Shown here piece after piece: positions 24,235-63,684 of a DNA stretch of 64,000 nucleotides. Made by a program: the position numbers and the translations under genes. Source of the stretch: an uncultured Rivularia sp. (GTDB lineage: Bacteria > Cyanobacteriota > Cyanobacteriia > Cyanobacteriales > Nostocaceae); contig OY762007.1 in the NCBI GenBank assembly GCA_963665115.1, forward strand, positions 1,696,001-1,760,000, given 5' to 3'. Under the pieces are notes generated by a model. The model saw only the letters and a list, made by a program, of their open reading frames with translations. It was not told where the DNA came from and did no database searches. Position 1 is the first letter of the stretch. Each line of letters begins with the position of its first letter.

Positions 24235-24262
24235 ACACCCGGAGGGTGTCGGCTTCGCCTAT
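24235..24262. mobile_element. 28-nt double-hairpin insertion into a HIP1 site (SDR5-like)
   Basis: GCGAT|ACACCCGGAGGGTGTCGGCTTCGCCTAT|CGC; removal restores GCGATCGC and the reading V-G-D-R-V-I-Q. Confidence 0.8.
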
Positions 24263-31827: not shown

Positions 31828-34410
31828 TTAGTAACCATTTTCCACATTATTATCTATTTTTACCGATTGATTTCCAGCAATTCTCGCATAAATAGAAGGT
31901 GCTATCTGCTGAAAGTGTTGAACGTCTGCTTCACTTAAACCATTAGCTTCAATTTCTTCAAGAGTATTACCAATTGACAATGCTTGATACTCCCCATCGG
32001 AATACTTAACTCGCATTTTCGGATTAGATGAACCGTTAGTCCATAAAGTAATTTCTTGCGTTTGTGGATTCCAGCTTACTGTATTTAACTTCCCTGCTAC
32101 CGTTGTTTTATCCTGAGTTGAAAGAAAAGCATGAATAATTGGTGCAACTTCCAATGTACGATTAGCTTGAACTTGTTGTACTAATAAAAACTTATTTTCG
32201 GAAGGCTCATTTTGTTGGATTATACTCCACTCTTGGGGATACTCTACCGTACTCGCATCAATTACAACTTTTGCTGCTGAAGGTGGAGCAGCGGTAATTT
32301 TACCTTTGACGGTGTAACCCTGTATCAGAATATTATGAGCTTTCAATACTGCTGTAAGTTTCTCAAATGATTCGGGTTTTAATTCTCCCAACTTCTTGTC
32401 TTTAATCATTGCAATTCCGATATTTGGTTTCTGAGAATTTTTACTAGGTTTAACGGAAATAGTAACAGTAGCTTGATAACTCTGTTTGTTCCAATCCACA
32501 TCAGCGAAAGCTCCTGATTTTAATTTATTTACCTCGATTGAATTGCCTTTTGTTGTAGTAATAATTACCTGCTGTGCTTTTGCTAATCCTTCGGAAACTT
32601 GTTCGGATGTAATAGTATTATTTAATTCTGACTCCTGTGCTGGAATTAAGTAATCCTGAAAAGCATTTTTTGAACTTTGATTTTCATAATTTAAACGACG
32701 ATTATATTCGCTAAAATCATTTAATAACTCTCGTAAATGTTCCGCTTCTTTGGGCAAATTATCAGAAGCACATCGAGCAAGATTAGCTGATAAATTTGCT
32801 AAAAATGTTCTTTGTTCGTTGGCAGGAATTTGACTACACTCCGATTCAATTGCAATTGCTTTCATCGCTAAGTTAGCCACAATCCCAATGTTGTCATGAG
32901 CAGCTTCCAAAGCTATCTTCTCAAAACTTCCACAGTAAGCTGCTTTTTGAGGTAAAACACTTTCTGGATAACGGTTTTCTGGTTGAGTTTTGAACTGAAT
33001 TTCCTCAGTTGTGCTGGGAAAATCTTGAGCCAATGCAGTTAAAGGTTTATCACCATCGCAGTCACTATTAAGAGCCGTTGCTGTGCGACGATTGAGTTTA
33101 ATACTACCGGGATGGATTTCTTCTCCTTCTAATAAGCGATTCGTAAGTACTGCCATTACGTTGGTATTACCAACTGGGGGACGATGATATAAAACTTTCG
33201 CACCATTGGGTTTAGTGCGATCGCAAATCTCCCAATCTTTCAAGCGGTTGCAAGTCATCAGCATTGATGACTGAAATTTGATAATTCTTCCAGTAGCACA
33301 ATCTCTATATTGTTCTTGAAGATGTTCTGAAAGAAAATTAATAACCTTTGGTGTTTCGATAATTTGCAGATGTCCTTCTAAATCAGCTTTGAGAAGTTGA
33401 TACATTAATTCAGTATCGTTATCTCCAAAAGCTTCGTTAATCACATCTCCAAAATCATCCAAATCAAAATCATGTATTAGCTTACTTCCGGTTTCTCTTT
33501 TAAAATCACCTGCGAGTCTTCTTTCCACCGTTTGAATATAATCTAGTGCAACCTTACGCGGGTCATTCGCAATACTATCTAATTGTGCTAAACGCTCTTG
33601 TACCCTGGGTAAAGCATCATTTTTTGCACCTTCAGACAATCCTACCCAATACTGAGCGCCCGTTGCAGCTTCTACGGTGCGAGCATTTTCGCGATTACCA
33701 ATACCGATTGTAAGAGTGTATTCTCCCGGTTCCACTTCTGTTTGTCGATTAATTCGTATCCCGGTTTTCTCATTGTAGAGTTTATTTTTGCGTCCCTTAC
33801 CCAATTGAGATTTAGAAAGCACCAAATCATAACCGCTTCCGATACTAGAAAGATTAACTGGTGCTAAAGTACCTTTTATTGTTTGGTTAGCGTTGATTCC
33901 CTCCTGGGACTTAATAATTCCTCTTACCTGGAACTGAGCAGAAGGAATATTACCTAACTTTTCGTGCAATTTATGGTCAATCCGTCCATCTCCATCTCCC
34001 ACAAGTAACAAAGCCTGTTCTTCTGGTAAAACCCCACCACACTTCCCAGTTTCATCATCTACAATCAACACTTTAATATCTTCGACTTCAGCAAAATACT
34101 CGCATTCGCCAAATAGTAAAGAACCATATGCAGAACCGAAATGTGGCTCGTCAAAAATTTGTAACCGTAATCCTGGTTTATCGGAGAAATATAATCGGTC
34201 TTTTTTGGAAAACTGAAGATACTTATCCTGATGTTTCGTTAAATCATCCTCAGTTGAAATTCCAGGATAAACAATGCCGATACTCCACTTAACATCATTA
34301 CCATAAAGATACTCCGCAGCAGTATTTTCCAAAGTCTCGATTAAAGGTTTACCATCAACTTCGATGGGTTTACCTGTTTTGGTACAGAAATATTCTAGAG
34401 CTATTGACAT
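31828..34410 (-). CDS. Two-barrel (RdRP/YonO-like) single-subunit RNA polymerase homolog
   Basis: GDGDGRI, FQVR, IKGTL, YHRPP, NSDCDGD and IGIVAN motifs in the order seen in cellular RdRP-like enzymes. Confidence 0.7.
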   Translation of the reverse strand: MSIALEYFCTKTGKPIEVDGKPLIETLENTAAEYLYGNDVKWSIGIVYPGISTEDDLTKHQDKYLQFSKKDRLYFSDKPGLRLQIFDEPHFGSAYGSLLFGECEYFAEVEDIKVLIVDDETGKCGGVLPEEQALLLVGDGDGRIDHKLHEKLGNIPSAQFQVRGIIKSQEGINANQTIKGTLAPVNLSSIGSGYDLVLSKSQLGKGRKNKLYNEKTGIRINRQTEVEPGEYTLTIGIGNRENARTVEAATGAQYWVGLSEGAKNDALPRVQERLAQLDSIANDPRKVALDYIQTVERRLAGDFKRETGSKLIHDFDLDDFGDVINEAFGDNDTELMYQLLKADLEGHLQIIETPKVINFLSEHLQEQYRDCATGRIIKFQSSMLMTCNRLKDWEICDRTKPNGAKVLYHRPPVGNTNVMAVLTNRLLEGEEIHPGSIKLNRRTATALNSDCDGDKPLTALAQDFPSTTEEIQFKTQPENRYPESVLPQKAAYCGSFEKIALEAAHDNIGIVANLAMKAIAIESECSQIPANEQRTFLANLSANLARCASDNLPKEAEHLRELLNDFSEYNRRLNYENQSSKNAFQDYLIPAQESELNNTITSEQVSEGLAKAQQVIITTTKGNSIEVNKLKSGAFADVDWNKQSYQATVTISVKPSKNSQKPNIGIAMIKDKKLGELKPESFEKLTAVLKAHNILIQGYTVKGKITAAPPSAAKVVIDASTVEYPQEWSIIQQNEPSENKFLLVQQVQANRTLEVAPIIHAFLSTQDKTTVAGKLNTVSWNPQTQEITLWTNGSSNPKMRVKYSDGEYQALSIGNTLEEIEANGLSEADVQHFQQIAPSIYARIAGNQSVKIDNNVENGY

Positions 34411-34469
34411 TAACTAAACCTCTGCTGGCTGCTCCCTACCCCCTGCCTCATATTACGGTTCTTGTAAGC

Positions 34470-34795
34470 AAACAATAAAGTTGTAAACTGGCAGGCATCC
34501 TAAAGCCTTGATATTACGTTGACATTTACAATTTTACTCAAAATAAAGTTGTAAACTGTTTGGGTGTAAAACTGTTGGTTAATAAGAAACCGTAAACAAT
34601 AAAGTTTATTACTGTCACATTAATTATTAGCTCAAAACCAGAAGAGTTTTTACTAAAAAACGGTTAACAAGTCTCAAAAGTTATAGTTCAAGATTCTTTC
34701 TCCAAATCAAATCCCGATTCCTATATGTGACAGTTAGTTTATGACTTTACGACCTAGTTTACGAGTTTACGTCTTAGTAATAAACTTTATTGTTT
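34470..34795. promoter_or_regulatory. Cluster of direct and inverted repeats (candidate origin or operator)
   Basis: AATAAAGTTGTAAACTG twice; perfect 20-bp inverted repeat 34594-34613/34776-34795. Confidence 0.5.
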
Positions 34796-34799
34796 GGGT

Positions 34800-35525
34800 T
34801 CAATCTACGAACTTACGCTTTGTCGGTGGAGTAGCCCAAATAACACAATGTCCAGACTTTGCTTTACGTCCGTACTGGGATAAAATCACACCCAATCTTT
34901 GAGCATCTTTGACGCATTCCCCGTTGTCCAAATAACCTCTGTTCCAATCAATCAAATTTCTAGCAAATTTTCCTTCCTTAGAAATCGCCCATTTCATTGC
35001 TTCCAACTCATCCCAGGTCAAAGTACTTGATTGCACCTTTGTATATCCACCACTTATCATCCCAGCAATCCAGGGAGGCGTTAAAATTCCCATGATTGCA
35101 CCGACTCCCAGGGTGAAAAATAATAATAAACTTGCCGGAAGTACAGAAGTTAAAAGTTTTCGGCTTTCTGTAAACTGTGCTTTGCGAATCAGAGCGTGAG
35201 CGGCTCTATCAATAGCAACTTTCTGACGTAATACCGTAACTTTTTCCACTTCTTGCAAGTTGCGAGCCAAATCTTGATTCCAGGTTTCAAACAACAGTTG
35301 CAAAACGGACGGCGCATTTGTCAACATTGCTTCTAATTGTCCGGTAGCTACCAAAATTAGAAACAAAGGGTCATCTTGAGATAAACCACAGCTTACAGCA
35401 AAACTCAATACCTGCTTTTTAAACTCTTCGCTTTTACCATTTAGAGCTTCAGCCAAAAACTTATTAACTTGGTCATTTTCTTCCCGATTTGAGTTTTTAT
35501 CGCTGGGAGCAACTTCCTGTGTCAT
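34800..35525 (-). CDS. DUF6753-like membrane protein partnered with the MobD-like ATPase
   Basis: GLSQDDPLFLILVATGQL and WAISKEGKFARNL motifs. Confidence 0.65.
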   Translation of the reverse strand: MTQEVAPSDKNSNREENDQVNKFLAEALNGKSEEFKKQVLSFAVSCGLSQDDPLFLILVATGQLEAMLTNAPSVLQLLFETWNQDLARNLQEVEKVTVLRQKVAIDRAAHALIRKAQFTESRKLLTSVLPASLLLFFTLGVGAIMGILTPPWIAGMISGGYTKVQSSTLTWDELEAMKWAISKEGKFARNLIDWNRGYLDNGECVKDAQRLGVILSQYGRKAKSGHCVIWATPPTKRKFVD

Positions 35526-36553
35526 TTAACCAATCCCGTTTCGGCGAACGCTGTATGAACTTCTGCAAGAAAATTCTTGACTCGCTGTCTCGATATCACC
35601 TTTATTTCAGGATGAGAGAGCGCACTATTAAAAGTAATCCCTAATCGATCAATCACATTTCGTTCCCAGAATGGAAACTTGGGGAAATTCATCTCTTTAA
35701 ATTTATGATTCTCTTTAGCAGTGAGAAAATCTGGCATTTCATCTACATAATCCCACTCCGAGCATAATCCCAAATTTTTCACAAATACATGAGTTACTCT
35801 ATCTCCCAAATCATTCAGAGATTTGATAAAGAAATCAACAGAATCTACACCTCCCGTACATACAAACCATTTCACAAAAGTAATTTGATATTCCTTACCT
35901 ATCTCATCCAAATCATTTGTTTTTATCCAGTCAGTCACCTTTGAATAAACTTGAGCGGGTAAATTGACAATCACTGATTTTTCAAATGCTAAATCAAAAA
36001 TGTGGTCGGCTTGATTGGCTTTTTTATCATCATCGCTAAAGAAAGCAGAATGTACGTTATCATAAATCTGAGAAATATCTTCGTTGCTTTTATCTGCATC
36101 AACAATTGCTACTTTATGCTTTATTGAAGCGCAATATTCTATTAATGCTCTACTAACAAATGACTTGCCCGCGCCTCCTTTTTCACCGTCTATGATATGA
36201 ATAGTTGTGGGAATTTTGACTAATTTTTCTTGATTGCTAGCAGTATTATTTGTGTTAGTAGGTATTGGAGCGGTAGTTACAGGTTTATCTTCATCTGTAT
36301 TTGATTGTAATAATTCTGTATGGGGTAAACTTGAATCACCCTCTAATTCTTTTGCCCAATCTTGAGCAGAAGTTTCACTAGATGAATTCATCCCATTTTT
36401 AGTATTTGAATTTTCAGGAGCAGAATATTTTTCTTGCATGGTTATAGATGTACCTTGTGAGTTATTATTTGAAGCACTAGAAAAATTAGTGTTTTTCTTT
36501 GGTCTACCTCTCTTTCTTTTTTCTGGTTGTTGATTTTCTGCTGTATCGCTCAT
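35522..36553 (-). CDS. MobD-like / ParA-MinD superfamily ATPase
   Basis: Deviant Walker A IDGEKGGAGKS; IVNLPAQ. Confidence 0.8.
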   Translation of the reverse strand: MSDTAENQQPEKRKRGRPKKNTNFSSASNNNSQGTSITMQEKYSAPENSNTKNGMNSSSETSAQDWAKELEGDSSLPHTELLQSNTDEDKPVTTAPIPTNTNNTASNQEKLVKIPTTIHIIDGEKGGAGKSFVSRALIEYCASIKHKVAIVDADKSNEDISQIYDNVHSAFFSDDDKKANQADHIFDLAFEKSVIVNLPAQVYSKVTDWIKTNDLDEIGKEYQITFVKWFVCTGGVDSVDFFIKSLNDLGDRVTHVFVKNLGLCSEWDYVDEMPDFLTAKENHKFKEMNFPKFPFWERNVIDRLGITFNSALSHPEIKVISRQRVKNFLAEVHTAFAETGLVK

Positions 36554-36583: not shown

Positions 36584-37024
36584 TTATTCAGAAAACGAAC
36601 CCAGACTTCCCCATTCCCCATTCCCTACTTCCACTTCTAACTGTCCGACAAGCTTTGTTTCATTTTTATAAGAAATATTAGAACTGTTTTCAGCTTTAAC
36701 TTCATTTGATTTATTAGTTTGAGCTAAATTCCCATCACTCATAAGTAAGTTATAGAACCGCTCTAATCCTAAAGATGAGCAAATATAATCAGCGTGAAGC
36801 AATAACTCCCTAACCGCATCTCTACCTAATTGTTGTTTAATATTCAAAGGAGTTACATCATCTTCAAGTAACACTAAAGGCAACCAGTAAGGACGAATTG
36901 CCTGCATTATCAAAGCATTAGCAGAATTCAATTGGTAATGTCTCAGATAATTTAAAACTTTTTCTTCTGGAGTTCCGACAAAAGGTTGAAATCTGATGCT
37001 GTAGTCAACTCTTCGTTTCTTCAA
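36584..37024 (-). CDS. Hypothetical protein, possible ParR-type partner
   Basis: Directly downstream of parM. Confidence 0.5.
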   Translation of the reverse strand: MKKRRVDYSIRFQPFVGTPEEKVLNYLRHYQLNSANALIMQAIRPYWLPLVLLEDDVTPLNIKQQLGRDAVRELLLHADYICSSLGLERFYNLLMSDGNLAQTNKSNEVKAENSSNISYKNETKLVGQLEVEVGNGEWGSLGSFSE

Positions 37025-37025
37025 C

Positions 37026-38160
37026 TTATGCTACCTCAGCAACCGAATTTGAACCAGACATGAAATACAAAAACATTCCATAAGCATCTGTAAGTCTCGT
37101 TCCTAATTTGTACGTATCTACAGCATCGGGAACCACAACCCCACCGTGCCAAATGCAAGGTGTAGCAGAATAACGAGAATTGAGTTCTTTCTTCAAATAA
37201 TCTGCTGTACCTCCACAAAATACTATTTCGTCAATATCGCGAGGAACTACATTGCTTAACCAGGATATTAGCGTTGCGATATAAAGATTTCTCGCTTCTT
37301 TTATTGCCGTTACCAGTGCTGCTACTTCCTCATTGCGAGCTGCAACCGTAGTGCTACGAGTTAACTTATACAAAGGGACTAGGGCTGATATCGTACCCGC
37401 TCGCAACTATAGCTCTACATAAATCAGATTCAGATAATCCACTGGTTTTAGTCATAACGGTTTCTATCATCCGCACCATACCTAAATCCGAAGTTTTACC
37501 GCTGTCTAATGCTCCCCGATAGCTTACCAAAACTGAAGCATTGCGATATCCAATCATGATTATTGCGCTTTTGCGTTGCCCAATCTCTACCCCTACTCGT
37601 TTTGAATGAAGTAGAAATACTCCCGCACCTTCTGGATAACAATTAAATCGTCCCAACTCCAGTGACATATCTCCTGAAGGGGTTTCAAAGTTTTTGAGAA
37701 GGGAGCGCAGAATATTTTCAAATTTCTTTCTGGATTCATATTCATTAGCTGGAAGCAATACACACAAATCGAATTTGAAACAATTGCTCAACTTCAGCTT
37801 TTGCGCTAAAACCCAAACACTTGCCAAAGCTTTGTATAAACCTCGTTCGTACTTAAGCTCTTTCAATCCAGCATTTGCATAAAAGCGCGATGCAGCTAAG
37901 TATCCAACCGCTGCATACTTTCCTCCAAATCCCACCCAAGCAGCATTTGTAGGTTCGCATACTCCTAAATTATTTTGTAATAAGTCATCAATAGCAGCTT
38001 TGGGTACTGCAATTACTTCCGGTTCCATAAATAAACTCCCAATTTTACCGTCAGTGCTTGTATAAATTGCTTTCAAACCGCTACCACCAATATCAGCCGC
38101 GAGAGTTAATTGAACCGGAGTACTATTTTTTTGTTCTGTTTTTCGATTATTTTTACCCAT
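37026..38160 (-). pseudogene. parM: ParM/StbA actin-like segregation ATPase with one +1 frameshift near 37375
   Basis: DIGGSGLK, PEGAG, MIGYRN and FCGGTA motifs. Confidence 0.85.
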
Positions 38161-39762: not shown

Positions 39763-41382
39763 ATGATACCGCTAGCCGTCTGTAAAATCCAGAAAATCAA
39801 AAGCTGGGGAATGCTCAAGGGTAATGAAGCTCATACCGCACGAGAAAGAGATACCCCCAATGCAAACCCAGAAGTAACCAATATACGAATTATTGGTGAT
39901 TCTTCCAATTTAGATTTAGCAACTTTAGTAAGACATGCAATCGGTTCGCAGAAAATCCGCTCAAATGCTGTTCTTGCAGTAGAAATGTTGCTCAGTGCAA
40001 GTGCTTCCTATTTCCGTCCCAATGCACCTCAAGAAGCAGGAGCTTATGACAAACAGCGTTTAGATAATTTTGTAGAAGCAACAGTTAATTGGTTACATTC
40101 TTCTTGGGAAGAACGAGTAGTTAGAGCAGAGTTACATCTTGACGAAATTACACCTCATATTCACGCTTACATTGTGCCGTTAGACGAGAGAGGTAAACTC
40201 AACTGTCGGGCATTGTTTGGTGGAAAAATTAAACTATCAGAATTGCAAGATAGTTTCGGAAGGGCTGTTGAACATCTAGGTATCTCTCGCGGGATTAAAG
40301 GCAGCAAAGCGACTTACACCACGCTCAAAAAATACTATGCTGCCGTTAATCAAGATTCCCAACTTATAAATTTAGAACGCTTTCTTCCTAAAGTTAAGAT
40401 GTCTGAATCTAGTGAGGAATACCGACAGCGAATAATTCAAATTTTGAATCCTGAGTTTGAAATAATTAATTACCAACTCAATCAACGCTCGCATTTGCTC
40501 AATAAATTTAATGAGTTAAAGCGAACTGCAACACACAGCGAAAAACTTCGCCAAGAATTAGAGTCAGAATTACAAATCCTTAAAACAACTATTAAACGTG
40601 AAGAATTGCCTTTAGGCTTGGTTGCTTACGAATTAGGGATGAATCTAGATAATCAATGGTTATCAAAAACTAACGCTATTGACTTAGTGATGCGAGTCAA
40701 TCAGTGCAAATTTGATGATGCACTTATCTGGTTGCGAGATAAATTTGGAAAGGAACAAATGCTAGCTGCGGTAACTAATCAAGTAGCTAGTAGAGCCTTG
40801 AACATTGCATATCAACATCCTACAAAAGTTTTCGTACCACCAGTACCCGATAAAAGTCTTTGGAAAGAAGTTGAGAAATATTTCCAAAACCATTATTGTA
40901 TTCCCCACAAATTGACACAAACGCTCAATCAGCGAACTTTGCTATATGCAGATAGCAATAATAATGCAGTATTCCTAGCACGAAATCTTTCTTTTGAAAT
41001 TACCGGAGCTTACCTACACTCATTAAAAACCACCGCGAATACTTTCAGTTTATATCCTGGAAGTCAACGTTCTGGTGGTTGGTTTCATCTGAGCATGGGA
41101 AGAACCTCAAATAATCCTATAACAGCAGCAATCTTAACTGCTTCACCAATTGAATCATTGTCTCTAGCAATATTAAACGCTCCTCATACAAATAGAACTC
41201 TTTATTTGTCCATTGACAAGATTCATTCAAATAGTCTTCCAGAGCAGCACATTCCTATACCTGTGCAATTTTTGAAGACTGTACCAAATGTAGCTATTGC
41301 TATCCCCGATAAAAATGTAGCAGCCATTCAAAAGCTTTTACCTCATTCAACCAAATTACAGCCAAGAAACTACTTGGAATAA
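39763..41382 (+). CDS. MobV (Pre/Mob) family relaxase
   Basis: HTARERDTPNA, RSNAVLAVE and HLDEITPHIH motifs. Confidence 0.9.
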   Translation: MIPLAVCKIQKIKSWGMLKGNEAHTARERDTPNANPEVTNIRIIGDSSNLDLATLVRHAIGSQKIRSNAVLAVEMLLSASASYFRPNAPQEAGAYDKQRLDNFVEATVNWLHSSWEERVVRAELHLDEITPHIHAYIVPLDERGKLNCRALFGGKIKLSELQDSFGRAVEHLGISRGIKGSKATYTTLKKYYAAVNQDSQLINLERFLPKVKMSESSEEYRQRIIQILNPEFEIINYQLNQRSHLLNKFNELKRTATHSEKLRQELESELQILKTTIKREELPLGLVAYELGMNLDNQWLSKTNAIDLVMRVNQCKFDDALIWLRDKFGKEQMLAAVTNQVASRALNIAYQHPTKVFVPPVPDKSLWKEVEKYFQNHYCIPHKLTQTLNQRTLLYADSNNNAVFLARNLSFEITGAYLHSLKTTANTFSLYPGSQRSGGWFHLSMGRTSNNPITAAILTASPIESLSLAILNAPHTNRTLYLSIDKIHSNSLPEQHIPIPVQFLKTVPNVAIAIPDKNVAAIQKLLPHSTKLQPRNYLE

Positions 41383-47625: not shown

Positions 47626-49228
47626 TTATACCGCATCGCCCCAAAAGGAAGTAATAGCAGGGGCAAACACCGACGTATCTTCACTACTAGCAGGTTGTGA
47701 AAAATACTTAGCACGGTTGGCAATAGCCAAAATTCTATCAGTATCCCTGACATACAACGGCACCATCGAGTCCCGTTGTTCCAATAATTCATTCAAACTA
47801 ATATTCATTTTAAGCCCCTGGTGAAACAATTTGCGAGCAGCTTTCTCCACCATCCGAGCTAATTCCGCACCAGTACAGTTAACAGTATTATTCAGAATAA
47901 TCCGCCATTCCTTCTGTGTAAGCACATCACTATCCTTATAGCGCTTATCAAATCTTGCCAAATGCATCATCAAAATTTCCTTACGCTCGTAAGCTTGAGG
48001 GAATCCCACATAAAATATTTCATCAAATCTTCCCATCCTGGTTAACTCAGGTGGTAACACATCAATTCTATTGAGAGTCGCAACCACAAACACCGCAGTT
48101 TTTTTATCCTGCAACCAAGTAAGTAGAGTTCCTAAAATCTGTGTAGAATTAGTATCTTCCCCACCTGTATCTGAGGTAGAAAACAATTTATCCAACTCAT
48201 CAAAATAAAGCACTACAGGAGCGCAAGCTTCTACCCGTTTTAAAGTACGCTTCAAATACGTAGCACCACCGCTTACAAAGGCTGCGGTATCTATACTGAC
48301 AAGAGGAAAACCCAGAACAGAAGCACAGACATTTGCAGCAAGAGTTTTACCAGTTCCAGGTGGTCCCTACTAACAAACATCCCTTGGGAAGAGGAATATT
48401 CGCTTTCCTAGCTTCCGTCGAAAAATCTAGCTTCGCTTGGAGGGTGAACTTCTTGAATAAATCTAAACCGCCGAAATCAGGTACGCTTGGCTTTGAAACA
48501 AAATTCAAATTCAAAGAACGAAAACGATAAATCTTGTAAGCTAAAAGTTGTTTTAATAAGTCATGAATATTTGTTGTCTCTTCAGGACGAATAGCAATTT
48601 TTAATCCCAAGCGAATTTCTTCAATAGTCAGACCAGAAGCAGCATTTACTAGGCTCGATATATTAGTTTTGTCCGTCAAACATGGTAACTCTTTTTTGAG
48701 GTAATCAGCGATATCCTTCTCAGAAGGTAATGGATTGTATAAAGTTGGAATTAAACTAGCAAGAGTTGAGGGTATTTCAACATTATCTGTGGTCAAAATG
48801 ATTAGTTTTTTGAAGAAACTATTATTTTCAAGTTCATAGTAGATATTAATGATTTTTGATATGAGTTTATGAGAAAAAAAATTATCTTCTTTTGACGCAT
48901 CATTTCCTAAAGAGAATAGATTTTCAAAGACAAATATTCCTTCTCTTTCAGAATCCATTAAAAACTCAAAAACATCAAAAACATCTAGGTCGTGCTTGCA
49001 TAAACAACTAGAATGTATAGCTTCAAAATCTACTTTATCTTCCGAATTACAATTTACTTGTTCCATGCATCCCCAGCCAGAATTCCATAAATATACAGGA
49101 ACATTTTTTAGAGAAGCACTGTTTCTTATAATCGACCCTAAAACAGTTGCACGTTCTCTGGTTGAAGCAGTTACGTTAATTACAGGAACACCTGAATCAA
49201 TCAATACGTTTAAATAAGATAATTCCAT
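47626..49228 (-). pseudogene. AAA+ ATPase (Ycf46-like) with one +1 frameshift in Walker A near 48366
   Basis: Removing one G restores VGPPGTGKT; LYFDELDK and PPELTRMGRFD motifs. Confidence 0.85.
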
Positions 49229-49232
49229 GTTA

Positions 49233-49401
49233 GAAGGCAGGAGGTAAAGGGCAGAGGGCAGGAGGTAAGAAGATAAATAAATATCTTAAAACTTCCTACA
49301 GAAAATATGCACGAAGAATACTTGTATAATTAGCTGACCATTATTAATAGTTATTCCATCATTAATTCCCTCCTGCCTTCTGCCACCTGCCTACTGCCTT
49401 C
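49233..49401. repeat. Inverted pair of 5x heptamer arms (GGAGGCA/TGCCTCC)
   Basis: Arms at 49233-49267 and 49367-49401. Confidence 0.85.
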
Positions 49402-50754
49402 GACCTGTGACGGTTGCAGCTTTGGTAAGATTTGTTCAAAATACGTTAAATCTTTCTGACTCATATTACTTTTGAGCTTTCCCCCATCCTTTTCTAACAA
49501 CACACCACGTCCATCTTTAGCTTCAATATGCACGTTTCCTTCCGGACTAGCTCGCCATTTATAGGAAAAAACACCATCTATTTCAACTTCTTTTTGTTGA
49601 GCTATAGCATATTGCACCAGAGCATTAGTCACTCTTTCTACGCTCTTAAAATACTCAGCTTCTTGTTTACCTATAGGAGTAAAGGTTGTAGGTAGAGGTT
49701 CATTTTTCTTAAGAGAATGTTGTAAAGTACTAATGTCTTGAATTTCTGTACTATCCAAATTTCCTTTCTCAACTTTCAAGCCTAAAGGAGTTGAACGGAA
49801 CTGCATTAATAGTTTCCCTGTTGAAGAGTTGGATACTTCATACTTTGTACCTTGACGGGAAATTTGGTATTCTCCAGCAGTATATTGATTTACTCCGGGT
49901 TGCGTTTGGAGATGAAATAAAGTTTTTAGGGATGCAGCACCCTTATGTTGTACGGAATTTTCTTTGAATTCTCGTATCCCTAGTTTAATAGCAGAAGTCA
50001 CGCCTTGAACGACAGTTGAAACATTGTTAACAGCTTGTTGCCACCATGAAGTATTTTTGGGTTGCCGTAACCTTTGTTCAATTAGTTCTTGATAAAAATG
50101 ACGTTCTTGTTCTAATGCTTTTAACTCAGTTTTTAACTGTTCAACTTCAGCCAGTAAGATATTTTTTAAAGGACTATCTTCTAAAAATTGAAGTGACTCT
50201 TTAACTCGTGTTGAGCCATTAGTAAGTGGTAAATTTGCATCCTCTTTAACTGAAGATGGATGATTATTTGATTCAGCGTTTATAAAATCACCTTCATGAA
50301 TTTGGTTTAAGTCTTGACGCTCTTTAACATAATTATTTTCTTTGACAACTTCTGGTTTATTTTGACTTAGATTTGTCTCAGCACCGATTAAATTATTTAC
50401 AAGTACTTTACCACTTTCATCACTCTGTAAAATAACTTGTCCGTTTAATTCAACTCTTTTATTATTTACTCCTTCTAGGACATCACCAACAGGTGTAGAG
50501 CGTAATTGTTGAAGTTCGCTAATTAATTGAGGATTTAAAAGCTGTCCCGATATCCCAGAAATTTCGTCTCTAAATTGATTATTATCTCGTCCGTAAACTA
50601 ACCTATCACCATCAAATATTTTTAAGTCTTGTCGCTGATTATCTCCCAAATTTTTAACATCTAGTAACGTTCGTAATAAAGTTTCAATTATCTGCTCGTA
50701 ATGCTGTTGAATAGCAGTTGCATCTCCGGAGTTTAATGTAAATATATCACTCAT
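49351..50754 (-). CDS. Hypothetical protein in the transfer region
   Basis: 467-aa ORF in the operon. Confidence 0.75.
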   Translation of the reverse strand: MSDIFTLNSGDATAIQQHYEQIIETLLRTLLDVKNLGDNQRQDLKIFDGDRLVYGRDNNQFRDEISGISGQLLNPQLISELQQLRSTPVGDVLEGVNNKRVELNGQVILQSDESGKVLVNNLIGAETNLSQNKPEVVKENNYVKERQDLNQIHEGDFINAESNNHPSSVKEDANLPLTNGSTRVKESLQFLEDSPLKNILLAEVEQLKTELKALEQERHFYQELIEQRLRQPKNTSWWQQAVNNVSTVVQGVTSAIKLGIREFKENSVQHKGAASLKTLFHLQTQPGVNQYTAGEYQISRQGTKYEVSNSSTGKLLMQFRSTPLGLKVEKGNLDSTEIQDISTLQHSLKKNEPLPTTFTPIGKQEAEYFKSVERVTNALVQYAIAQQKEVEIDGVFSYKWRASPEGNVHIEAKDGRGVLLEKDGGKLKSNMSQKDLTYFEQILPKLQPSQVEGSRQVAEGRRELMME

Positions 50755-51122
50755 TGTGTTAACTCCTCATGCATTGGCATACGATTCAGAAGAATCTTTT
50801 CATCCAAATAAAAAATTGCTAATTCTCCATCGAACATCCAAGCTATAAACTGACTCTCCTGATTACTATTTCTCACACATTCATAGCATCCAAATTTATT
50901 AATCCTGCCAGCTAATAAGCCATACTGGTCAAATATTTCTATAACAAAAGGACAGTAACCTGTTTCAAACAATGGTTTTTTTATAGCTTCAATTAACGTT
51001 TTATGCCATGAAGGATAATTCATTAAAATAGATGAAATATCTGGACTAAAATTTGTAGAAGAGGCAGGAGGCAGAGGGCAGGAGGCAGAAGGTATAGTAC
51101 TTGTTTTATTAGATATATTCAT
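50751..51122 (-). CDS. Hypothetical protein
   Basis: ORF overlapping the next start codon (ATGA). Confidence 0.6.
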   Translation of the reverse strand: MNISNKTSTIPSASCPLPPASSTNFSPDISSILMNYPSWHKTLIEAIKKPLFETGYCPFVIEIFDQYGLLAGRINKFGCYECVRNSNQESQFIAWMFDGELAIFYLDEKILLNRMPMHEELTQ

Positions 51123-51307
51123 TTATTTAACCTTAAGTAAAAGACATAGTTGATAATTTTTAGTTCTTGTAAAGTGAGGTTATTTAAGTCCCGTTACTAC
51201 ATTGGATTTACAGTTTGGATTTAAGGTATTAACATTTGGTTTAAAACTTCTTTTCCTCCATCCCTCCTTCTTTCCCTCCTGCCCTCTGCCACCTGCCTCC
51301 TGCCTTC
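51060..51307. repeat. Inverted pair of 5x heptamer arms
   Basis: Arms at 51060-51094 and 51273-51307. Confidence 0.85.
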
Positions 51308-51309
51308 AT

Positions 51310-52428
51310 TTAAAACACACTCGCAAGTTCTTGAGGAGAAGGTATAGTTCCGGGTTTTTCGGGTAATGGAAATAATTTTTCTGCCAATTGAACTCTTTCT
51401 AAAAACTGATTAGAACGTTCCGAATCACTTACCTTTACAGAATTATTCTGAATCAATCTTTCTCGCAGTAAGTTCCATTTACCCTCAGACCAATTCATCT
51501 GCTGAATATCAGATAAAGGAACCTTTATTTTTTGCAACAACGGAACATAAGCCTCTGTACCCCTCTGGTAAGCTGGGTTAATAATTACCGCTTTACCAGT
51601 ACCCATTTTGGCAAACTGGGCTGGTTCTAATAAATGCCTTTTCTGATGATGCTCGTTAGTACTGCGAGAACCCCCACCTTTACCCATACTGCGAGATTTG
51701 GAATTAAACTGAATTTCCATTTCTCCTAGATAATCGCTGAACAACTTGGCTGATTCCGTATCTTGGGGGTTAAATATAAACTTAGTTGCAGTTCCCCCAA
51801 AAATAGCTCTTGTTAATTCCTTACCGTAAACTTTCTCCAACTGAGCAATATTCTGATATCCTAAAATCCCTACAAACCCATCTTCCCTATTTTCATTCAG
51901 CCAATTTACTAACGCTGGCAAGTACAAAGTTGGTAATTCGTCCAAAGCCACAATCAAAGGGTCAGAACGCGGTACGGTACGCGATACATTACGAGTCACA
52001 ATCATATGTAAGATAGCCGCAATCCCTCTTTGAGCATCAGGTACATATAAGGTTCTGTTTGGTTCTTTCAACATATGTAGTTGTCTTCTGAACGTGGCTT
52101 TAGTTTTGATTAAACCAGCATCACGCCATTGTTTTTCAAGCTTAGAAGTAATGAAAGTTGGAGTACCCACATAAAGCGCTACTGAGTTTCGGATTGGCTT
52201 GGCAATCTGAAAAGTAGCTTTATGTTTAGCCTTGTTTTTCTCGCGTTTACCTCCCCAGTAACTGGTTGCTACTTTACCTTTATGATTGCGACCGGACAGG
52301 AAGTTGAAAATGGCGATCGCCAAAAAACAGCCCATAAGAATTAACCCAGATTCTGACTTCATCAAATCCGCTAATCTTTCAATCTGTAAAGTTGGTGGTG
52401 TCGTCGTTGTCTGTCGTATTGCTGTCAT
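51310..52428 (-). pseudogene. virD4: VirD4-like coupling protein, apparently with an internal deletion (no Walker A)
   Basis: VALDELPTL, NENREDG, LGYQNIAQL and KFIFNP present; no GxxGxGKT after PDAQRGIA. Confidence 0.75.
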
Positions 52429-52985
52429 GGTTTAATTTTTTGTTCGATAGTTGTCCAACTCTCGTGGAAGTGCGTATACCTGCCAAGGTCAAAACAATAT
52501 TGGTTTTCAGATACCATTTTTTTCATCGTTGTATGTTGACTAAAAACCAGACAAGGAAAAGGTTTAAAAAAACTATCATCAACTTTTATTAACTGTTGAG
52601 GTGGTGGTAAATTTGGATTAGCAATTATTTGTAAAAGACGTTCTCCCTCCGAGCGATAAACTTCATATAAACAGCCACCGACACCACATAACTCAGGTGA
52701 ACGATAATCAAATACAAATAATTCACCACCGCTATCTAATGATATTTTCAGAACTTTGATTGATTTTTTGTCTAACTTAGTTTCTGGGAGAGAAGATTTT
52801 ACTTGTGCAAGTAGAGGTTGAGGAACAACATCAACAGCATTTTGCCAATTATATTCAAAATCTTTTACTTTTTTATTAGATGATGGTGTTTTCAGCATCC
52901 ATAATAAAATAGGAGCCGAAATAAAAAACAAAACTATACATGATATTTGAAAACAAATAATCTTTTTGCGGAGTTGTTTTTTCAT
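52425..52985 (-). CDS. Membrane-anchored hypothetical transfer-region protein
   Basis: N-terminal transmembrane segment; LCGVGGCLY. Confidence 0.7.
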   Translation of the reverse strand: MKKQLRKKIICFQISCIVLFFISAPILLWMLKTPSSNKKVKDFEYNWQNAVDVVPQPLLAQVKSSLPETKLDKKSIKVLKISLDSGGELFVFDYRSPELCGVGGCLYEVYRSEGERLLQIIANPNLPPPQQLIKVDDSFFKPFPCLVFSQHTTMKKMVSENQYCFDLGRYTHFHESWTTIEQKIKP

Positions 52986-53008
52986 ATTAAAGATAATAGT
53001 TAAATTTT

Positions 53009-54856
53009 TTATTTATTATCGATACAATCCATTGCTTCTACCGCTTTTCTATATCCATCTACAACTGCAATCCCATGTTTCTTAACAGAATCACTCTCGT
53101 TAGCATTACTAATTTCTGAATCAATTGGAATACTTGCACCGCCAAAATGTATTTGACCGACACGTTCAATTAATCTTTCACCTGTAAATGTTTTTGATGT
53201 AGTTGGGTCAATTTGTTTTGATGCTGTATCCAATAATCGATTAGTATTGGATGCAATTAAATTCTGTTGTTCTGTAGGTGAAAAATATTGCACCATTTCT
53301 TCACCTGTAACTTCTTCACCTTTATCTAATCGAGTAAGAAATTTTGTCCCACCAGATTTACTCTGAATAATTTTTCTCACATTAGGACGGTATGACATAA
53401 ATTGCATAGCACCAAGCGAGCGACCGCAATTACCCTTACCATCACAAAGATAATTCCCTACCGAATCGTAATTATCTTGAATATCAGAAAGAGCAGTACT
53501 CAAAGCATCGATATTAGTACCTGATAAATGTCGTTTGCTGCAACTACCTTTATTGGGTGGCAATAAACTAGATGACTTACTACTTGAAGTTATGGGAGAA
53601 TTATTGAAAGTGAATCCACTACTTTTTAATCCAGTCGGAGTAGAAGTAGAATTTTCTCCACCCCCATTTATCAAACCTAAAAATATAGCGTCTTTTTCTT
53701 GATAACTCATAAACGGAATCGGACCGATAAAATAAGGTGTACATCCCAAATCAACAAAATTATTCCGCATACAAACTCTAAAGAATAAAGCTTGGGACAT
53801 CATTCCATCGACTTCCGATACATCCCAAACCGCTACTTTAAAAGCATCACCAAACAAATGTCTTCCTGTAGGTTCTTTTCCACCATTTATTGAACCAAGA
53901 ATTCCTCTACCACCTTTGACCAACTGATACTTACCGCTAACCCAAGCTTTACCCTTAACAGATTTAGAACCAGATAGCTCTACATGAGCGCAGTCTTGTT
54001 TACAGGGTACCGCGAAACCTTCTTTCTTACTTCCAGAAATTGTTCGTTGTCGCAACTGCTCATCAGTTCCAAAAGCAACATCAACTATTCCGACTTCTCC
54101 ACCTATAGCGTTTATAGGATTGGGGAATTGGGAGAAAGGAACCGAATCTAATCCTCGAACAGAATCAATGTAAGCTCCTTGCCAATTGGAAAATACTTCA
54201 ATTGGGGTAACAGATAGTTCAGGAATGGAATCAATATTGTAAGAAGTTAAATCAACTTCAGAAAAACTAAGCTTACCCAGGTGAGGGGATTTTTTTAGTA
54301 AATTACCAATCCTTTGGCTTCCATCAATTGAGCTAGATAAATTTTGAGAAAGTAAATACTCTACAGGCTTTACCTCACCAATAGGAGTATTCTTTAACCC
54401 AGGAATTGCAGAGACTAAACTACCTAAAGTTTGTAATTTCATAACACCAAATTCTTCTAAATTAATATCTTTTGAATCAGTATTTGTAATTTGAGAAATA
54501 TCAGCCAGCGAAAACTTTTGTAATTCAAAAGAGTCCTGAAAGTCACCTAACATCATAAATTCTGAAACGTTTTGTCCTTTTCCCCAACTGCGATTGGGGT
54601 TATAACCTAACTTTTCTTGAACACCTAGAGGTGCTTGGAATGAACCATCTGTATTAATAGAAGGCATTGTAGAAAAAGTAATTTGATTCCAGTCTGGTAT
54701 ACGAGTATTCTGCCAATTAACTGTTTGGATTCGATTTTGATTATTGGATATATCTTGAGCTTGTGATGAAACAATGATTGCACCAGAAATTATTATTGAT
54801 AAACCGATACCAGAGAATAAACTAATTTTTTTATCTATACGTTTCATAACTTTCAT
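53009..54856 (-). CDS. Secreted transfer-region protein, possibly with a C-terminal lysozyme-like domain
   Basis: Signal peptide; GRSLGAMQFM motif; operon context. Confidence 0.6.
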   Translation of the reverse strand: MKVMKRIDKKISLFSGIGLSIIISGAIIVSSQAQDISNNQNRIQTVNWQNTRIPDWNQITFSTMPSINTDGSFQAPLGVQEKLGYNPNRSWGKGQNVSEFMMLGDFQDSFELQKFSLADISQITNTDSKDINLEEFGVMKLQTLGSLVSAIPGLKNTPIGEVKPVEYLLSQNLSSSIDGSQRIGNLLKKSPHLGKLSFSEVDLTSYNIDSIPELSVTPIEVFSNWQGAYIDSVRGLDSVPFSQFPNPINAIGGEVGIVDVAFGTDEQLRQRTISGSKKEGFAVPCKQDCAHVELSGSKSVKGKAWVSGKYQLVKGGRGILGSINGGKEPTGRHLFGDAFKVAVWDVSEVDGMMSQALFFRVCMRNNFVDLGCTPYFIGPIPFMSYQEKDAIFLGLINGGGENSTSTPTGLKSSGFTFNNSPITSSSKSSSLLPPNKGSCSKRHLSGTNIDALSTALSDIQDNYDSVGNYLCDGKGNCGRSLGAMQFMSYRPNVRKIIQSKSGGTKFLTRLDKGEEVTGEEMVQYFSPTEQQNLIASNTNRLLDTASKQIDPTTSKTFTGERLIERVGQIHFGGASIPIDSEISNANESDSVKKHGIAVVDGYRKAVEAMDCIDNK

Positions 54857-55583
54857 TTCCTAATTGCATTAATCTGTTAACCAACTGTAACGAAATCCCA
54901 TTTTTGCGAGCAGCTATATTTATTTGTTCTCCTGCTCGAACTAAAACTAAAAAGTTTTTAACTCTCGGAATTAAAGGAGATTTTAAAGAAATTAAACGCT
55001 GCTGTCGTGCAACAATAAATCCCCGGCTTATTAACTGTAAATTATTGATATCTGTAGTGTTTCCGAATCTATTAGTATTAAACTCTTCTTTATCATTTGT
55101 AATCTCAATTGTGTGAAATTTGGGTGTTGCATCTCCAGGAGCTACCCTAAACATATAAACCCGTCGCTTGCTACCACCTTTGGTTACTACTGTTAATAAA
55201 CTGCTATTAGATGAAGGTAATTGTTTAAAATCTAAAGGTTTAATTCTTCGCAAATGCAATACAGTTGCACCATTATCTTCTTCACATTCTTTCCCCAATC
55301 CAGATAAACAACCGTCAACATCTAAAGAAGCAATACCAGGGTTATCTAACCATACTTTCTCTATTGTTTCACCAGTAGAAATAAATGAAATATTGACTCC
55401 ATATCCAGGAGATAATTTAATCAACGGTATTGCGCTTTTACTATTTCCAGTTGCAACTGTACTGCTTATTCGCTTGACACTAAAATTTATTTCACCAGCG
55501 ATTACTTTCATTGAAATATTAGTAGAGATAATTAAGGTGAATATAGAAATTACCGCAGCTTTATTTATGATATTTTTCATCAC
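54831..55583 (-). CDS. VirB9-like T4SS protein
   Basis: Signal peptide; LSPGYGVNISF and IEKVWLDNP; position after virB10. Confidence 0.55.
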   Translation of the reverse strand: MMKNIINKAAVISIFTLIISTNISMKVIAGEINFSVKRISSTVATGNSKSAIPLIKLSPGYGVNISFISTGETIEKVWLDNPGIASLDVDGCLSGLGKECEEDNGATVLHLRRIKPLDFKQLPSSNSSLLTVVTKGGSKRRVYMFRVAPGDATPKFHTIEITNDKEEFNTNRFGNTTDINNLQLISRGFIVARQQRLISLKSPLIPRVKNFLVLVRAGEQINIAARKNGISLQLVNRLMQLGNESYETYR

Positions 55584-57529: not shown

Positions 57530-58353
57530 AGATTCTCCTGTGGTAAATCTCGTATTGCATAAATTTCTAAACCGCTAGAACGTACTTGATAAACTACTGC
57601 TGCAAGTCCATCATTTTTCGATGGAGATGAAGGAGCTTCTACCGCTTGGACAAATATTTATTTATTGAAAGGAATTACTTCTCCTAACTTATTACTTTGT
57701 TCAAACATGGTAAGGTTAGCAATCATTCTTACTTTCCATTTACCTTCAGCTATTTTTACTGGTTGTTGAAAATATTGTGGAACAAAAACTACTTGGGTTT
57801 TTCCTTTAAACACTCTTGAAGGTGTTATATCGGCTAATAATTCTAAAAACTCTTTCCGGAAATCTGACGATAAAGCGTAGGATGCTTGCCATGCTCCATG
57901 AGTTACTTTACCTCTACTATTACTGATTGAACTAATATCTACACCACTGTCGAGTTTTGGTTCCACTGCATCTTCGACTGTCGTAGCGGGTAAATTCCCC
58001 GACCAATTCATCATTAAGCTCATTGTGTCGGAAACAAAGCGTAATACTACTTGGGGAGTGCGTTCTAAGCTTCCTAATTGAGCAACTTTAATTGATTTCC
58101 CACTTTCTAATTGAACTAAACTTGGAGGTGCCTTTTTACTTAATTGAGAATAGGAACCGTACAACAAAAATAGGATTACAAAAGCTAGAAGATGTAATAA
58201 GAAAGTACCGACAGTGAATAATGCTAAAGTATCACTTCTAGAAAAACGAGTTGTAGTGCGATTTAAAAATTTTAAACGTCTGTCTTCTGTTTGAGAATTT
58301 AAGTTTTTATTAATTGCCATAAACTGACCTATTACTGCTCTATTTTTTGACAA
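57526..58353 (-). pseudogene. VirB8-like T4SS protein with an in-frame TAA at 57658-57660
   Basis: PSLVQLESGK motif; reading continues FNK*IFVQAVEAP...GLEIYAIRDL to 57526. Confidence 0.65.
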
Positions 58354-59488: not shown

Positions 59489-59834
59489 TTTCCCAAATCT
59501 GAACTTTATGGTTTAACAAGTCAAATTAGACGTTCCGCTGTTTCGGTTCCTTCAAATATTGCAGAAGGATATGGTAGGAGAACAACGAAAGAATATATTC
59601 AATTTCTTCATATAGCGTTAGGCTCTCTTAGAGAACTAGATACCCAGTTAATTATTGCTAAAGAAGTTAATTTGGCTGAGACTGAATTTTTTACTTCTTT
59701 GTTGAAAGAAGTTGACCAACTTCAAGGAATCATGGTGTCTACAATCCAAAAGATAAAAACTTGATTTATTAGTTTCTTCTTCTTCCTCCTTCCTTCTCTT
59801 ACCTCCTGCCTTCTGCCTACTGCCTCCTGCCTTC
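59318..59834. mobile_element. Four-helix-bundle cassette with 35-bp inverted heptamer arms
   Basis: 59318-59352 and 59800-59834 are reverse complements with 2 mismatches. Confidence 0.78.
59414..59764 (+). CDS. Four-helix bundle protein (23S rRNA IVP family), antisense to the transfer operon
   Basis: FPKSELYGLTSQIRRSAVSVPSNIAEG and FLHIALGSLRELDTQL motifs. Confidence 0.94.
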   Translation: MSYREQFIWKRGIQLAINCYRLTEHFPKSELYGLTSQIRRSAVSVPSNIAEGYGRRTTKEYIQFLHIALGSLRELDTQLIIAKEVNLAETEFFTSLLKEVDQLQGIMVSTIQKIKT

Positions 59835-60544: not shown

Positions 60545-60566
60545 AATAATTATTCCTATTATTGAT

Positions 60567-63628: not shown

Positions 63629-63684
63629 ATTCAGTCATTACTATCTACAAGTCTTCATATTATTCCCCGCTTGCTCCCTGCCTC

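What the first reader, a model, noticed from the sequence alone, without database searches (positions are those of the whole stretch)
31828..34410. Plasmid-encoded single-subunit two-barrel RNA polymerase homolog
Seen: GDGDGRI...FQVR...IKG, then YHRPP...NSDCDGD (33049-33063) and IGIVAN. Known: DG.G.I, FQ.R, KG, R.P and D.DGD in this order typify eukaryotic RNAi RdRPs and phage YonO, and D.DGD binds the catalytic Mg. Such homologs on cyanobacterial elements have, to my knowledge, only been predicted computationally. Inference: a dedicated polymerase or primase for the element, lying downstream of parM and the MobD-like gene. I cannot find the later D..K motif, so an in-frame deletion near 32570 (KAQQ|VIIT) is possible.
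Basis: partly seen in the sequence, partly recalled or inferred. Interest (0 to 1): 0.75.

Follow-up and report, generated by a model that had tools for sequence, protein, structure and literature searches.

The report
Truncated RNA polymerase on integrated element
This cyanobacterial gene belongs to a long-predicted but untested family of single-chain RNA polymerases on conjugative elements, but this copy has lost 399 residues, including a lysine kept by all its relatives, so it is likely a dead copy of an enzyme whose intact forms would make RNA on the element's own DNA.

Summary
The motifs are real. The 860-aa ORF keeps both double-psi barrels and all eight invariant two-barrel residues, and its model matches QDE-1/RDR2 (Foldseek E about 1e-11). 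The suspected deletion is also real: 88-93% identical orthologs are 1259 aa, and this copy lacks exactly 1197 bp at KAQQ|VIIT, also in contigs of three sequencing runs. The lost block holds the family's V-D-x-x-K motif (K in 109 of 109 rows), which likely matches QDE-1's NTP-binding trigger-loop subdomain, and the head domain. So this copy is probably inactive; neighbouring genes are broken too, and two intact paralogs lie elsewhere in the genome. It is not on a free plasmid here: it sits in a roughly 126-kb conjugative element integrated at tRNA-Cys of an 8.69-Mb contig, although the same module occurs on plasmids. The family was predicted in 2010-2012, and this scan has noted it in at least 9 other genomes. 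Intact members most likely make RNA primers on transferred single-stranded DNA (45%) or transcribe element genes (35%). Side finding: a TnsD-type Tn7-like transposon inserts just upstream of this gene (16 of 16 matches in the genus).

The parts
31828..34410 (-). Two-barrel (RdRP/YonO-like) RNA polymerase gene, 860 aa, internally deleted allele of a 1259-aa protein
33979..33999 (-). GDGDGRI, holds D139 (inferred counterpart of QDE-1 D709)
33793..33933 (-). First barrel basic motifs: Q161/R163, K179 (33871-33879), K205 (33793-33804); inferred counterparts of QDE-1 Q736/R738, K743, K767
33175..33189 (-). YHRPP, R410 and P412 (inferred QDE-1 R962/P964)
33049..33063 (-). DCDGD metal-binding loop, D450/D452/D454
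32872..32889 (-). IGIVAN at the start of helix 508-527, inferred bridge-helix equivalent; retained
32568..32569 (-). Junction of the 1197-bp in-frame deletion (ortholog residues 615-1013); 1 base fits either side
31831..32568 (-). Retained last beta-rich domain and clade-specific tail (residues 615-860); no family assigned
34463..34803 (.). 341-bp non-autonomous Tn7-like element between DUF6753 and the polymerase start; absent from 5 of 8 ortholog loci compared
34800..35525 (-). DUF6753 gene; its last codons are the Tn7-like insertion site
35522..36553 (-). ParA/CbiA-type P-loop protein (MobD-like)
36584..37024 (-). 146-aa conserved protein of the operon, no family hit
37026..38160 (-). ParM-like partition gene, in two frames here (264 + 126 aa) against 377 aa in orthologs
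39763..41382 (+). Mob_Pre (MobV-type) relaxase, divergent from the polymerase operon
47626..63999 (-). Conjugation gene block (TraG/VirD4-type coupling protein 51310-52428, TrbI/VirB10 55580-57529, AAA ATPase)

Best explanation
This gene is an internally deleted, likely inactive copy of a single-chain two-barrel RNA polymerase that is a backbone gene of a conjugative element integrated at tRNA-Cys. Shown: fold match, conserved catalytic residues, the 399-aa deletion, the att repeat, integrase, relaxase and transfer genes. Inferred for intact members: the two barrels hold two Mg ions through D139 and D450/D452/D454, the basic residues bind the NTP and RNA end, and the V-D-x-x-K helix closes on the incoming NTP as QDE-1's trigger-loop subdomain does. 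My preferred role for the intact enzyme is making RNA primers on the single strand that the neighbouring relaxase and transfer genes move to a recipient (about 45%; element-specific transcription about 35%). Inferred for this copy: it keeps the metal site but has lost that lysine, the following helices and the head/clamp part, so it would not polymerise normally; two intact paralogs could act in trans.
For: Fold: intact ortholog model pLDDT 88.8, pTM 0.85; Foldseek best hits maize RDR2 E 8.3e-11, QDE-1 E 1.6e-10; VIA Z 19.1 (rmsd 4.9, 509 aligned) to Thermus phage gp64-type RNAP, Z 18.2 (6.3, 595) to RDR2, Z 16.1 (5.2, 608) to QDE-1, model 1-934 on QDE-1 489-1338. The window protein's own model also hits QDE-1 first, E 9.3e-12. 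Deletion: 6 of 6 close homologs carry the block; 1197 nt in 4 of 5 loci measured, 1221 in the fifth; joint present in contigs of runs X1, X2, X3 (one study), while X4 spans the block and X10 shows it as loose ends. Importance of the block: K635 in 109 of 109 rows, S636 108 of 109, D632 97 of 109; QDE-1 V1115/D1116/K1119 contact the NTP and mutants confirm it (PMC9508822 passages); the Pol II alignment ends at model 633 = Rpb1 1081; dN/dS 0.09-0.22 in the block among orthologs; aligned length falls from 516 to 374 against P74 gp62 and from 602 to 447 against QDE-1. Decay nearby: parM split, helicase-methylase gene reduced. Element: tRNA-Cys with an identical 47-bp copy of its 3' part 126 kb away, integrase beside the tRNA, DnaB. 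Primase idea in print: PMC3417536 passages.
Against: The kept part shows no relaxed selection (dN/dS 0.07-0.12; 11 synonymous, 3 non-synonymous private changes) and the deletion is in frame, so recent loss and retained function cannot be told apart by sequence. The K635 = K1119 match rests on motif spacing and range ends, not on a residue-level structural alignment; the deleted model's range on QDE-1 still ends at 1136. In this subclade the D of the motif is already Q (11 of 109 rows). Against the primer role: sister elements carry a separate primase-like gene (weak PHROG hit E 9e-4; linked), and the tested bacterial-virus relatives, YonO and P23-45 gp64, are transcription enzymes. No empty tRNA-Cys site was found in 5 relatives, so the left end rests on the repeat alone.
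Confidence: 0.78

Rival explanations
1. Intact family members are dedicated DNA-dependent transcription enzymes, as YonO and P23-45 gp64 are, that express transfer or early genes of the element independently of host RNA polymerase; this copy is still a dead allele.
For: Top VIA matches are the phage non-virion RNAPs gp64/gp62 (Z 19.1 and 18.8), shown to transcribe phage genes (PMC10770324 passages); YonO transcribes late genes (PMC5467207 passages); some sister elements have another primase-like gene.
Against: RDR2 is within 1 Z of the phage enzymes and Foldseek ranks RDR2/QDE-1 first. RNase H, helicase and SLOG fusions in long homologs fit RNA-DNA hybrid handling. I did not search for an element-specific promoter motif.
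Confidence: 0.35
2. The 860-aa product is a working minimal or regulatory form: it keeps both barrels, all eight invariant residues and the likely bridge helix, and either polymerises slowly or binds template or partner as a dominant-negative.
For: In-frame deletion; model residues 1-610 stay confident; no relaxed selection in the kept part; a clamp-less two-barrel RNAP exists (gp96, PMC10770324 passages).
Against: No other homolog with this internal loss: the 2 of 110 rows lacking the block simply end early; the trigger-loop start is conserved in all RNAPs compared in PMC10770324; pTM drops from 0.85 to 0.68 and the junction has pLDDT under 50; seen in one study's runs only; neighbouring genes are broken.
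Confidence: 0.1
3. Intact members are RNA-dependent RNA polymerases that amplify or copy RNAs of the element, like eukaryotic RDRs.
For: Closest Foldseek hits are RDR2 and QDE-1; ESM Atlas lists an RdRP-labelled cluster at 0.91 (PF05183 on 30% of members); PMC2919709 section 8 raises an RNA-mediated role.
Against: QDE-1 itself uses DNA and RNA templates (abstract); no Dicer- or Argonaute-like gene among the 53 window proteins scanned; the constant neighbours are DNA-transfer genes.
Confidence: 0.08
4. The deletion or the chromosomal position is an assembly artefact.
For: Runs X1-X3 belong to one study and may be the source of the assembly; X3 holds a low-depth (2.2) contig with the missing block.
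Against: Independent contigs of X1 and X2 cross the joint with 255 bases on the shorter side at full depth, with zero depth over the missing block; the low-depth X3 contigs differ at about 6-10% of positions from the sequences laid, so they come from another strain; orthologous elements lie beside the same chromosomal flank in the multi-megabase contigs of G003, G007 and G019.
Confidence: 0.03

Closest known systems
Cyanobacterial YonO-like / RdRP-like proteins (Ruprich-Robert & Thuriaux 2010, PMC2919709; Aravind et al. 2012, PMC3417536, citing Iyer & Aravind)
   Same: Single chain with both barrels, the eight invariant residues, cyanobacterial selfish elements; long homologs found here carry RNase H as described (P0011).
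   Different: This copy lacks 399 aa; it has no RNase H or SLOG domain; I did not align it with the papers' listed members (supplement not read; the Iyer & Aravind paper is not held).
QDE-1 (Neurospora) and RDR2 (maize, Arabidopsis), Pfam PF05183
   Same: Whole-core structural match of the intact ortholog, about 600 residues; same order of motifs, including V-D-x-x-K spacing of QDE-1 V1115/D1116/K1119.
   Different: 10-12% identity, no Pfam RdRP hit for P0001 or P0053; extra beta-rich C-terminal domains; no RNA-silencing partners seen; motif and head deleted in this copy.
Thermus phage P23-45/P74-26 non-virion RNAP gp64/gp62 (PDB 8F72, 8F5M)
   Same: Highest VIA Z (19.1, 18.8), nearly the whole 595-aa chain aligned; single-subunit, DNA-dependent.
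   Different: Phage transcription enzyme, half the size; the deleted copy matches only residues 3-432 of gp62.
YonO of Bacillus phage SPbeta (PMC5467207)
   Same: Single-chain two-barrel polymerase on a mobile element with the aspartate triad.
   Different: Prophage late-gene RNAP; the ortholog found no match among 50,697 phage records; no YonO structure appeared in the fold searches.
Tn7 with TnsD (for the upstream insertion)
   Same: TnsA, TnsB, TnsC and TniQ+TnsD genes in the full element, repeated end motifs, 5-bp target duplication, one site, one orientation.
   Different: The site is the 3' end of DUF6753 on conjugative elements, not glmS or a tRNA gene; TnsD-guided targeting is inferred, not tested.

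Membership tests
Two-barrel polymerase superfamily, single-chain RdRP/YonO-like | Two double-psi beta-barrels in one chain | tested here: met
   Window protein's model matches QDE-1/RDR2 (E about 1e-11); isolated DPBB folds align to residues 378-461 (Z 9.0, rmsd 2.0, 77 aligned)
Two-barrel polymerase superfamily, single-chain RdRP/YonO-like | Eight invariant residues (QDE-1 D709, R738, K743, R962, P964, D1007, D1009, D1011) | tested here: met
   D139, R163, K179, R410, P412, D450, D452, D454 present and conserved; correspondence by motif order, and for the second barrel by HMM alignment to RNAP large subunits (sub-threshold, 14 of 17 hits)
Two-barrel polymerase superfamily, single-chain RdRP/YonO-like | Trigger-loop subdomain V-D-x-x-K after the second barrel | tested here: not met
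   Deleted in this copy; K present in 109 of 109 homolog rows and in the three paralogs
Two-barrel polymerase superfamily, single-chain RdRP/YonO-like | C-terminal head/clamp region | tested here: not met
   Intact model aligns to QDE-1 up to residue 1338 through model residue 934; ortholog residues 615-1013 are missing here
Two-barrel polymerase superfamily, single-chain RdRP/YonO-like | Template-dependent NTP polymerisation | not testable with these tools
   Needs biochemistry
Cyanobacterial YonO-like group of PMC2919709 / PMC3417536 | Sequence kinship with the members listed by those authors | not tested
   Supplementary Data S2 not read; PMC3769190 not held
Cyanobacterial YonO-like group of PMC2919709 / PMC3417536 | Cyanobacterial mobile-element location; RNase H fusion in some members | tested here: met
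   85 plasmid records with a match, the 40 listed all cyanobacterial; homolog P0011 has RNase H
Eukaryotic RdRP, Pfam PF05183 | Match to the curated Pfam profile | tested here: not met
   No Pfam family for P0001 or the intact P0053
Integrative conjugative element | Tyrosine integrase beside a tRNA 3' end | tested here: met
   Integrase (phrog_1, E 7e-11) at G000 1,766,247-1,767,380 next to tRNA-Cys c[1767633,1767704]
Integrative conjugative element | Direct att repeats at both ends | tested here: met
   Identical 47 bp at 1,641,554-1,641,600 and 1,767,631-1,767,677; a third, inverted copy at 1,620,132-1,620,179 complicates the left end
Integrative conjugative element | Relaxase, coupling protein, type IV secretion genes | tested here: met
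   Mob_Pre, TraG-D_C/TrwB, TrbI
Integrative conjugative element | Empty site in a relative; excision and transfer | tested here: inconclusive
   All 5 relatives checked have element-like DNA at this tRNA; excision not testable
Free plasmid | Separate replicon | tested here: not met
   Window lies in the single 8,693,925-base contig
Tn7-like transposon (upstream insertion) | TnsA/B/C/TniQ-TnsD genes, end repeats, 5-bp target duplication | tested here: met
   Full gene set at the same site in L061; exact duplications in L075, L077, L093, L094, L098; the window copy has ends only and unequal flanks

The most novel reading that the evidence does not exclude
The intact members are a conjugation-coupled primase of a new structural type: a eukaryotic-RdRP-like two-barrel enzyme that is a fixed part of the relaxase module of cyanobacterial ICEs and plasmids and primes the transferred strand. 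The module is constant enough that a TnsD-type Tn7 family has adopted the gene just upstream (DUF6753) as its attachment site, a protein-guided site on a mobile backbone rather than in a host housekeeping gene.
Probability: 0.4. Interest if true: 0.72.

Novelty: new member of a known kind. Interest (0 to 1): 0.38.

Why it matters
The family sits close to the origin of the eukaryotic RNA-silencing polymerases and, as far as my searches show, has never been assayed. This locus is the wrong copy to assay, which is useful to know: the 1259-aa orthologs, the two intact paralogs, or the homolog on pCC7120alpha of Nostoc PCC 7120 (WP_010999746.1) are the ones to use, and the natural deletion is a ready negative control for the trigger-loop and head parts. 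The work also shows the family on tRNA-integrated elements with several copies per chromosome, and points to a Tn7 attachment site that I did not find in print.

Tried and rejected
Pfam and PHROG give no family for P0001 or the intact ortholog. Sequence-profile search of the PDB gives only sub-threshold hits, E 0.38 or worse. No match in 50,697 phage records. The C-terminal beta-rich domains and tail got no usable hit in the ESM Atlas, Pfam or the whole-model fold searches; they were not folded alone, so their fold stays open; my guess of HIRAN-like domains (recalled) found no support. No RNA holder was listed among sequencing runs, which says nothing on expression. The sigma-70 scan was at chance level, 10 sites against 10.4. 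No long direct repeat explains the deletion; 1 base fits both sides. A DUF3854 replication primase was not found inside this element (only G000 2.90 Mb). A search for an empty tRNA-Cys site failed in 5 of 5 relatives. The viral structure library could not be searched. A genome scan with the TnsD protein found only 4 loci; the 3 other than the query locus show no DUF6753 or polymerase in the DNA held. Paper searches: RdRP-like/cyanobacteria/YonO/double-psi gave 4 papers; two-barrel/cyanobacteria/plasmid/single-subunit from 2017 gave 2; YonO/structure/bridge helix/trigger loop gave 0; DUF6753 gave 0; none of the listings or passages read reports an assay of a cyanobacterial member. Subscription papers and supplements are outside these searches.
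Full report
Observation. It has no Pfam or PHROG family. In an alignment of an intact ortholog with 109 homologs (A2; I chose these from about 190 proteins returned, leaving out most fragments and the longest fusions), R410, P412, D450, D452, G453 and D454 are invariant in 110 of 110 rows, Q161 and R163 in 106 of 106, K179 and K205 in 107 of 107, and D139 in 105 of 106 rows with a residue. By order and spacing these are the eight residues that Ruprich-Robert and Thuriaux list as invariant in all two-barrel polymerases (PMC2919709, sections 8 and 9 read), plus the counterparts of QDE-1 Q736 and K767 (PMC1750930, passages).

Fold. An AlphaFold model of residues 1-1140 of the intact ortholog L016 has pLDDT 88.8 and pTM 0.85. 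Foldseek ranks maize RDR2 (E 8.3e-11) and QDE-1 (E 1.6e-10) first. VIA-align gives Z 19.1 (rmsd 4.9, 509 aligned) for a Thermus phage gp64-type polymerase, 18.2 (6.3, 595) for RDR2 and 16.1 (5.2, 608) for QDE-1, with model 1-934 spanning QDE-1 489-1338; the wide search agrees. The model of the window protein itself (pLDDT 80.6, pTM 0.68) also hits QDE-1 first (E 9.3e-12). The ESM Atlas gives an RdRP-labelled cluster at 0.91, a lead only.

The deletion. Six homologs at 88-93% identity all carry a block between Q614 and V615. At the DNA level it is 1197 nt in 4 of the 5 loci where both edges were located and 1221 nt in the fifth. Contigs of three runs of one study cross the joint, X1 and X2 with no depth over the block, whereas run X4 spans the block and X10 shows it as loose ends. 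So the deletion is a real allele of this strain. The block begins in the middle of helix 602-631 and contains the family consensus Q-I-A-V-D-x-x-K-S, with K635 in 109 of 109 rows. In QDE-1, V1115, D1116 and K1119 of the trigger-loop subdomain contact the NTP base, 3'-OH and gamma-phosphate, and mutants confirmed their importance (PMC9508822, passages). The spacing is the same, and the Pol II alignment ends with model 633 on Rpb1 1081, the residue that paper pairs with V1115. I infer the equivalence; I could not inspect it residue by residue, and the deleted model's range on QDE-1 still ends at 1136. The block also covers the part that aligns to the QDE-1 head: aligned length falls from 602 to 447 against QDE-1 and from 516 to 374 against gp62. 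Among six orthologs the block is under purifying selection (dN/dS 0.09-0.22). The kept part of the window copy is not relaxed (0.07-0.12; 11 synonymous and 3 non-synonymous private changes), which fits a recent loss but does not exclude a retained role. Only 2 of 110 rows lack the block, and both simply end early. In this subclade the D of the motif is Q.

Setting. The window is part of a single 8,693,925-base contig. To the right lie DnaB and a tyrosine integrase beside tRNA-Cys. An identical 47-bp copy of the tRNA's 3' part lies 126 kb to the left. A third, inverted copy and duplicated DnaB and integrase pieces make the left end uncertain, and none of 5 relatives offered an empty site. Within the window are a MobV-type relaxase, a coupling protein and VirB10. 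The module relaxase / parM-like / 146-aa gene / MobD-like / DUF6753 / polymerase recurs in the orthologous and paralogous loci fetched (partly deleted in L049, rearranged in L011, L053, L054) and on a true plasmid of Fischerella NIES-4106. On pCC7120alpha the homolog lies about 8 kb from mobV; on a Gloeothece plasmid no relaxase is annotated within 10 kb. The genome holds four copies: this one, two intact ones of 1264 and 1277 aa with the D-x-x-K motif, and one frameshifted after about 1029 aa; the copy at 5.9 Mb has its integrase beside tRNA-Phe. The family matched 35 of 61 genomes searched, 22 of 26 others of the genus, 85 plasmid records, and 256 cluster representatives at E up to 0.001. 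The window's element shows other damage: parM is in two frames against 377 aa in orthologs, and a 1638-aa helicase-methylase gene that sits at the matching place in G019 is absent.

Mechanism. The intact protein most likely polymerises NTPs by the two-metal mechanism of its superfamily (established for QDE-1 and YonO; inferred here). For the role I favour priming of the transferred single strand (about 45%). The gene is tied to the relaxase module, long homologs are fused to RNase H, helicase and SLOG domains, and Aravind and colleagues proposed a primase role for these elements (PMC3417536, passages; the primary paper PMC3769190 is not held). Element-specific transcription is close behind (about 35%), since YonO and gp64 do that (PMC5467207 and PMC10770324, passages) and sister elements carry a separate primase-like gene. 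The window copy probably does neither.

What is known. The cyanobacterial group was described from sequence in 2010 (PMC2919709) and as part of selfish elements in 2012 (PMC3417536). I found no assay of a member. Earlier notes of this scan report the family in at least 9 genomes; a look-up with this sequence gave nothing. The finding is thus a new, damaged member of a known but untested kind.

Side finding. Between the DUF6753 stop and the polymerase start lies a 341-bp element with Tn7-type end repeats (the likeness to TnsB sites is recalled), absent from 5 of 8 ortholog loci. In G020 a complete TnsA-TnsB-TnsC-TnsD transposon occupies the same site. All 16 matches in 11 of 27 genomes of the genus lie at this junction, as do all 11 matches in 5 of 151 genomes of the family, 5 of which overlap the genus set. 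The orientation is constant, the insertion point lies 9-11 bases after a conserved motif in the last codons of DUF6753, and exact 5-bp duplications are seen in five loci. A 98% identical copy sits in an element whose DUF6753 is only 61% identical to the reference used, which points to recent movement between element clades. The query was the element itself and kin share insertions, so the counts are not independent events. Passages of PMC9881144, PMC10293859 and PMC8649781 did not mention this site; their supplements were not read.

Verdict. Observation confirmed; interpretation partly supported; new member of a known kind; interest 0.38.

Noticed in passing
window 34463-34803; L061:1188-8350; G000 4,259,934-4,260,274 and 5,914,725-5,914,933: Tn7-like transposon (full TnsABCD in G020, mini forms elsewhere) always inserted in the last codons of DUF6753, just upstream of the polymerase; likely a TnsD attachment site on a mobile backbone. 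No tnsABCD genes were found in G000.
   Followed up: yes
window about 3450-9860, 11035-13166, 14063-15592; L059:9402-16575: Long CRISPR array (about 36-bp repeat), Cas1 with a separate reverse transcriptase gene, a weak WYL protein, and type III Cmr/RAMP genes left of the window; all inside the inferred element, and RT/Cas1 also linked in G019.
   Followed up: partly
window 22199-24668: RecD2-like helicase interrupted by a 23S_rRNA_IVP (four-helix bundle) gene flanked by 7-bp tandem repeats; the same interruption is in G019, while G007 has a 647-aa frame.
   Followed up: no
window 17327-21846: NACHT-associated NNH5 / inactive restriction-endonuclease domain plus WD40 repeats, in pieces here; a 1489-aa related frame occurs in L050.
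   Followed up: no
window 44704-47028: Dam-type methylase with an ASCH domain and a 54-bp tandem repeat (12.6 copies, 44935-45597); related methylase genes follow the polymerase in two paralogous elements.
   Followed up: no
L009:10623-14417, L010:10625-14458, L011:7641-12087: Three paralogous polymerases in the same genome, each with DUF6753 and MobD-like neighbours; two intact, one frameshifted after the head domain.
   Followed up: partly
ortholog residue 632 (L016): This subclade has Q where 97 of 109 homologs have the D of the D-x-x-K motif; Pol II has N at the matching place according to PMC9508822.
   Followed up: partly
L064:1110-3338, L062:884-3133: 742-749-aa zinc-finger protein with a weak primase PHROG hit, linked to the sister elements but not found in the window's element, which has DnaB instead.
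   Followed up: partly
G000 1,620,132-1,641,600: Second, inverted copy of the tRNA-Cys att core and duplicated DnaB and integrase fragments: remnants of tandem integrations at the same tRNA.
   Followed up: partly
P0011, P0067, P0075, P0098, P0155, P0194: Long homologs (2269-3681 aa) fused to RNase H, SF1 helicase, SLOG, DUF4326 or NADAR domains.
   Followed up: no
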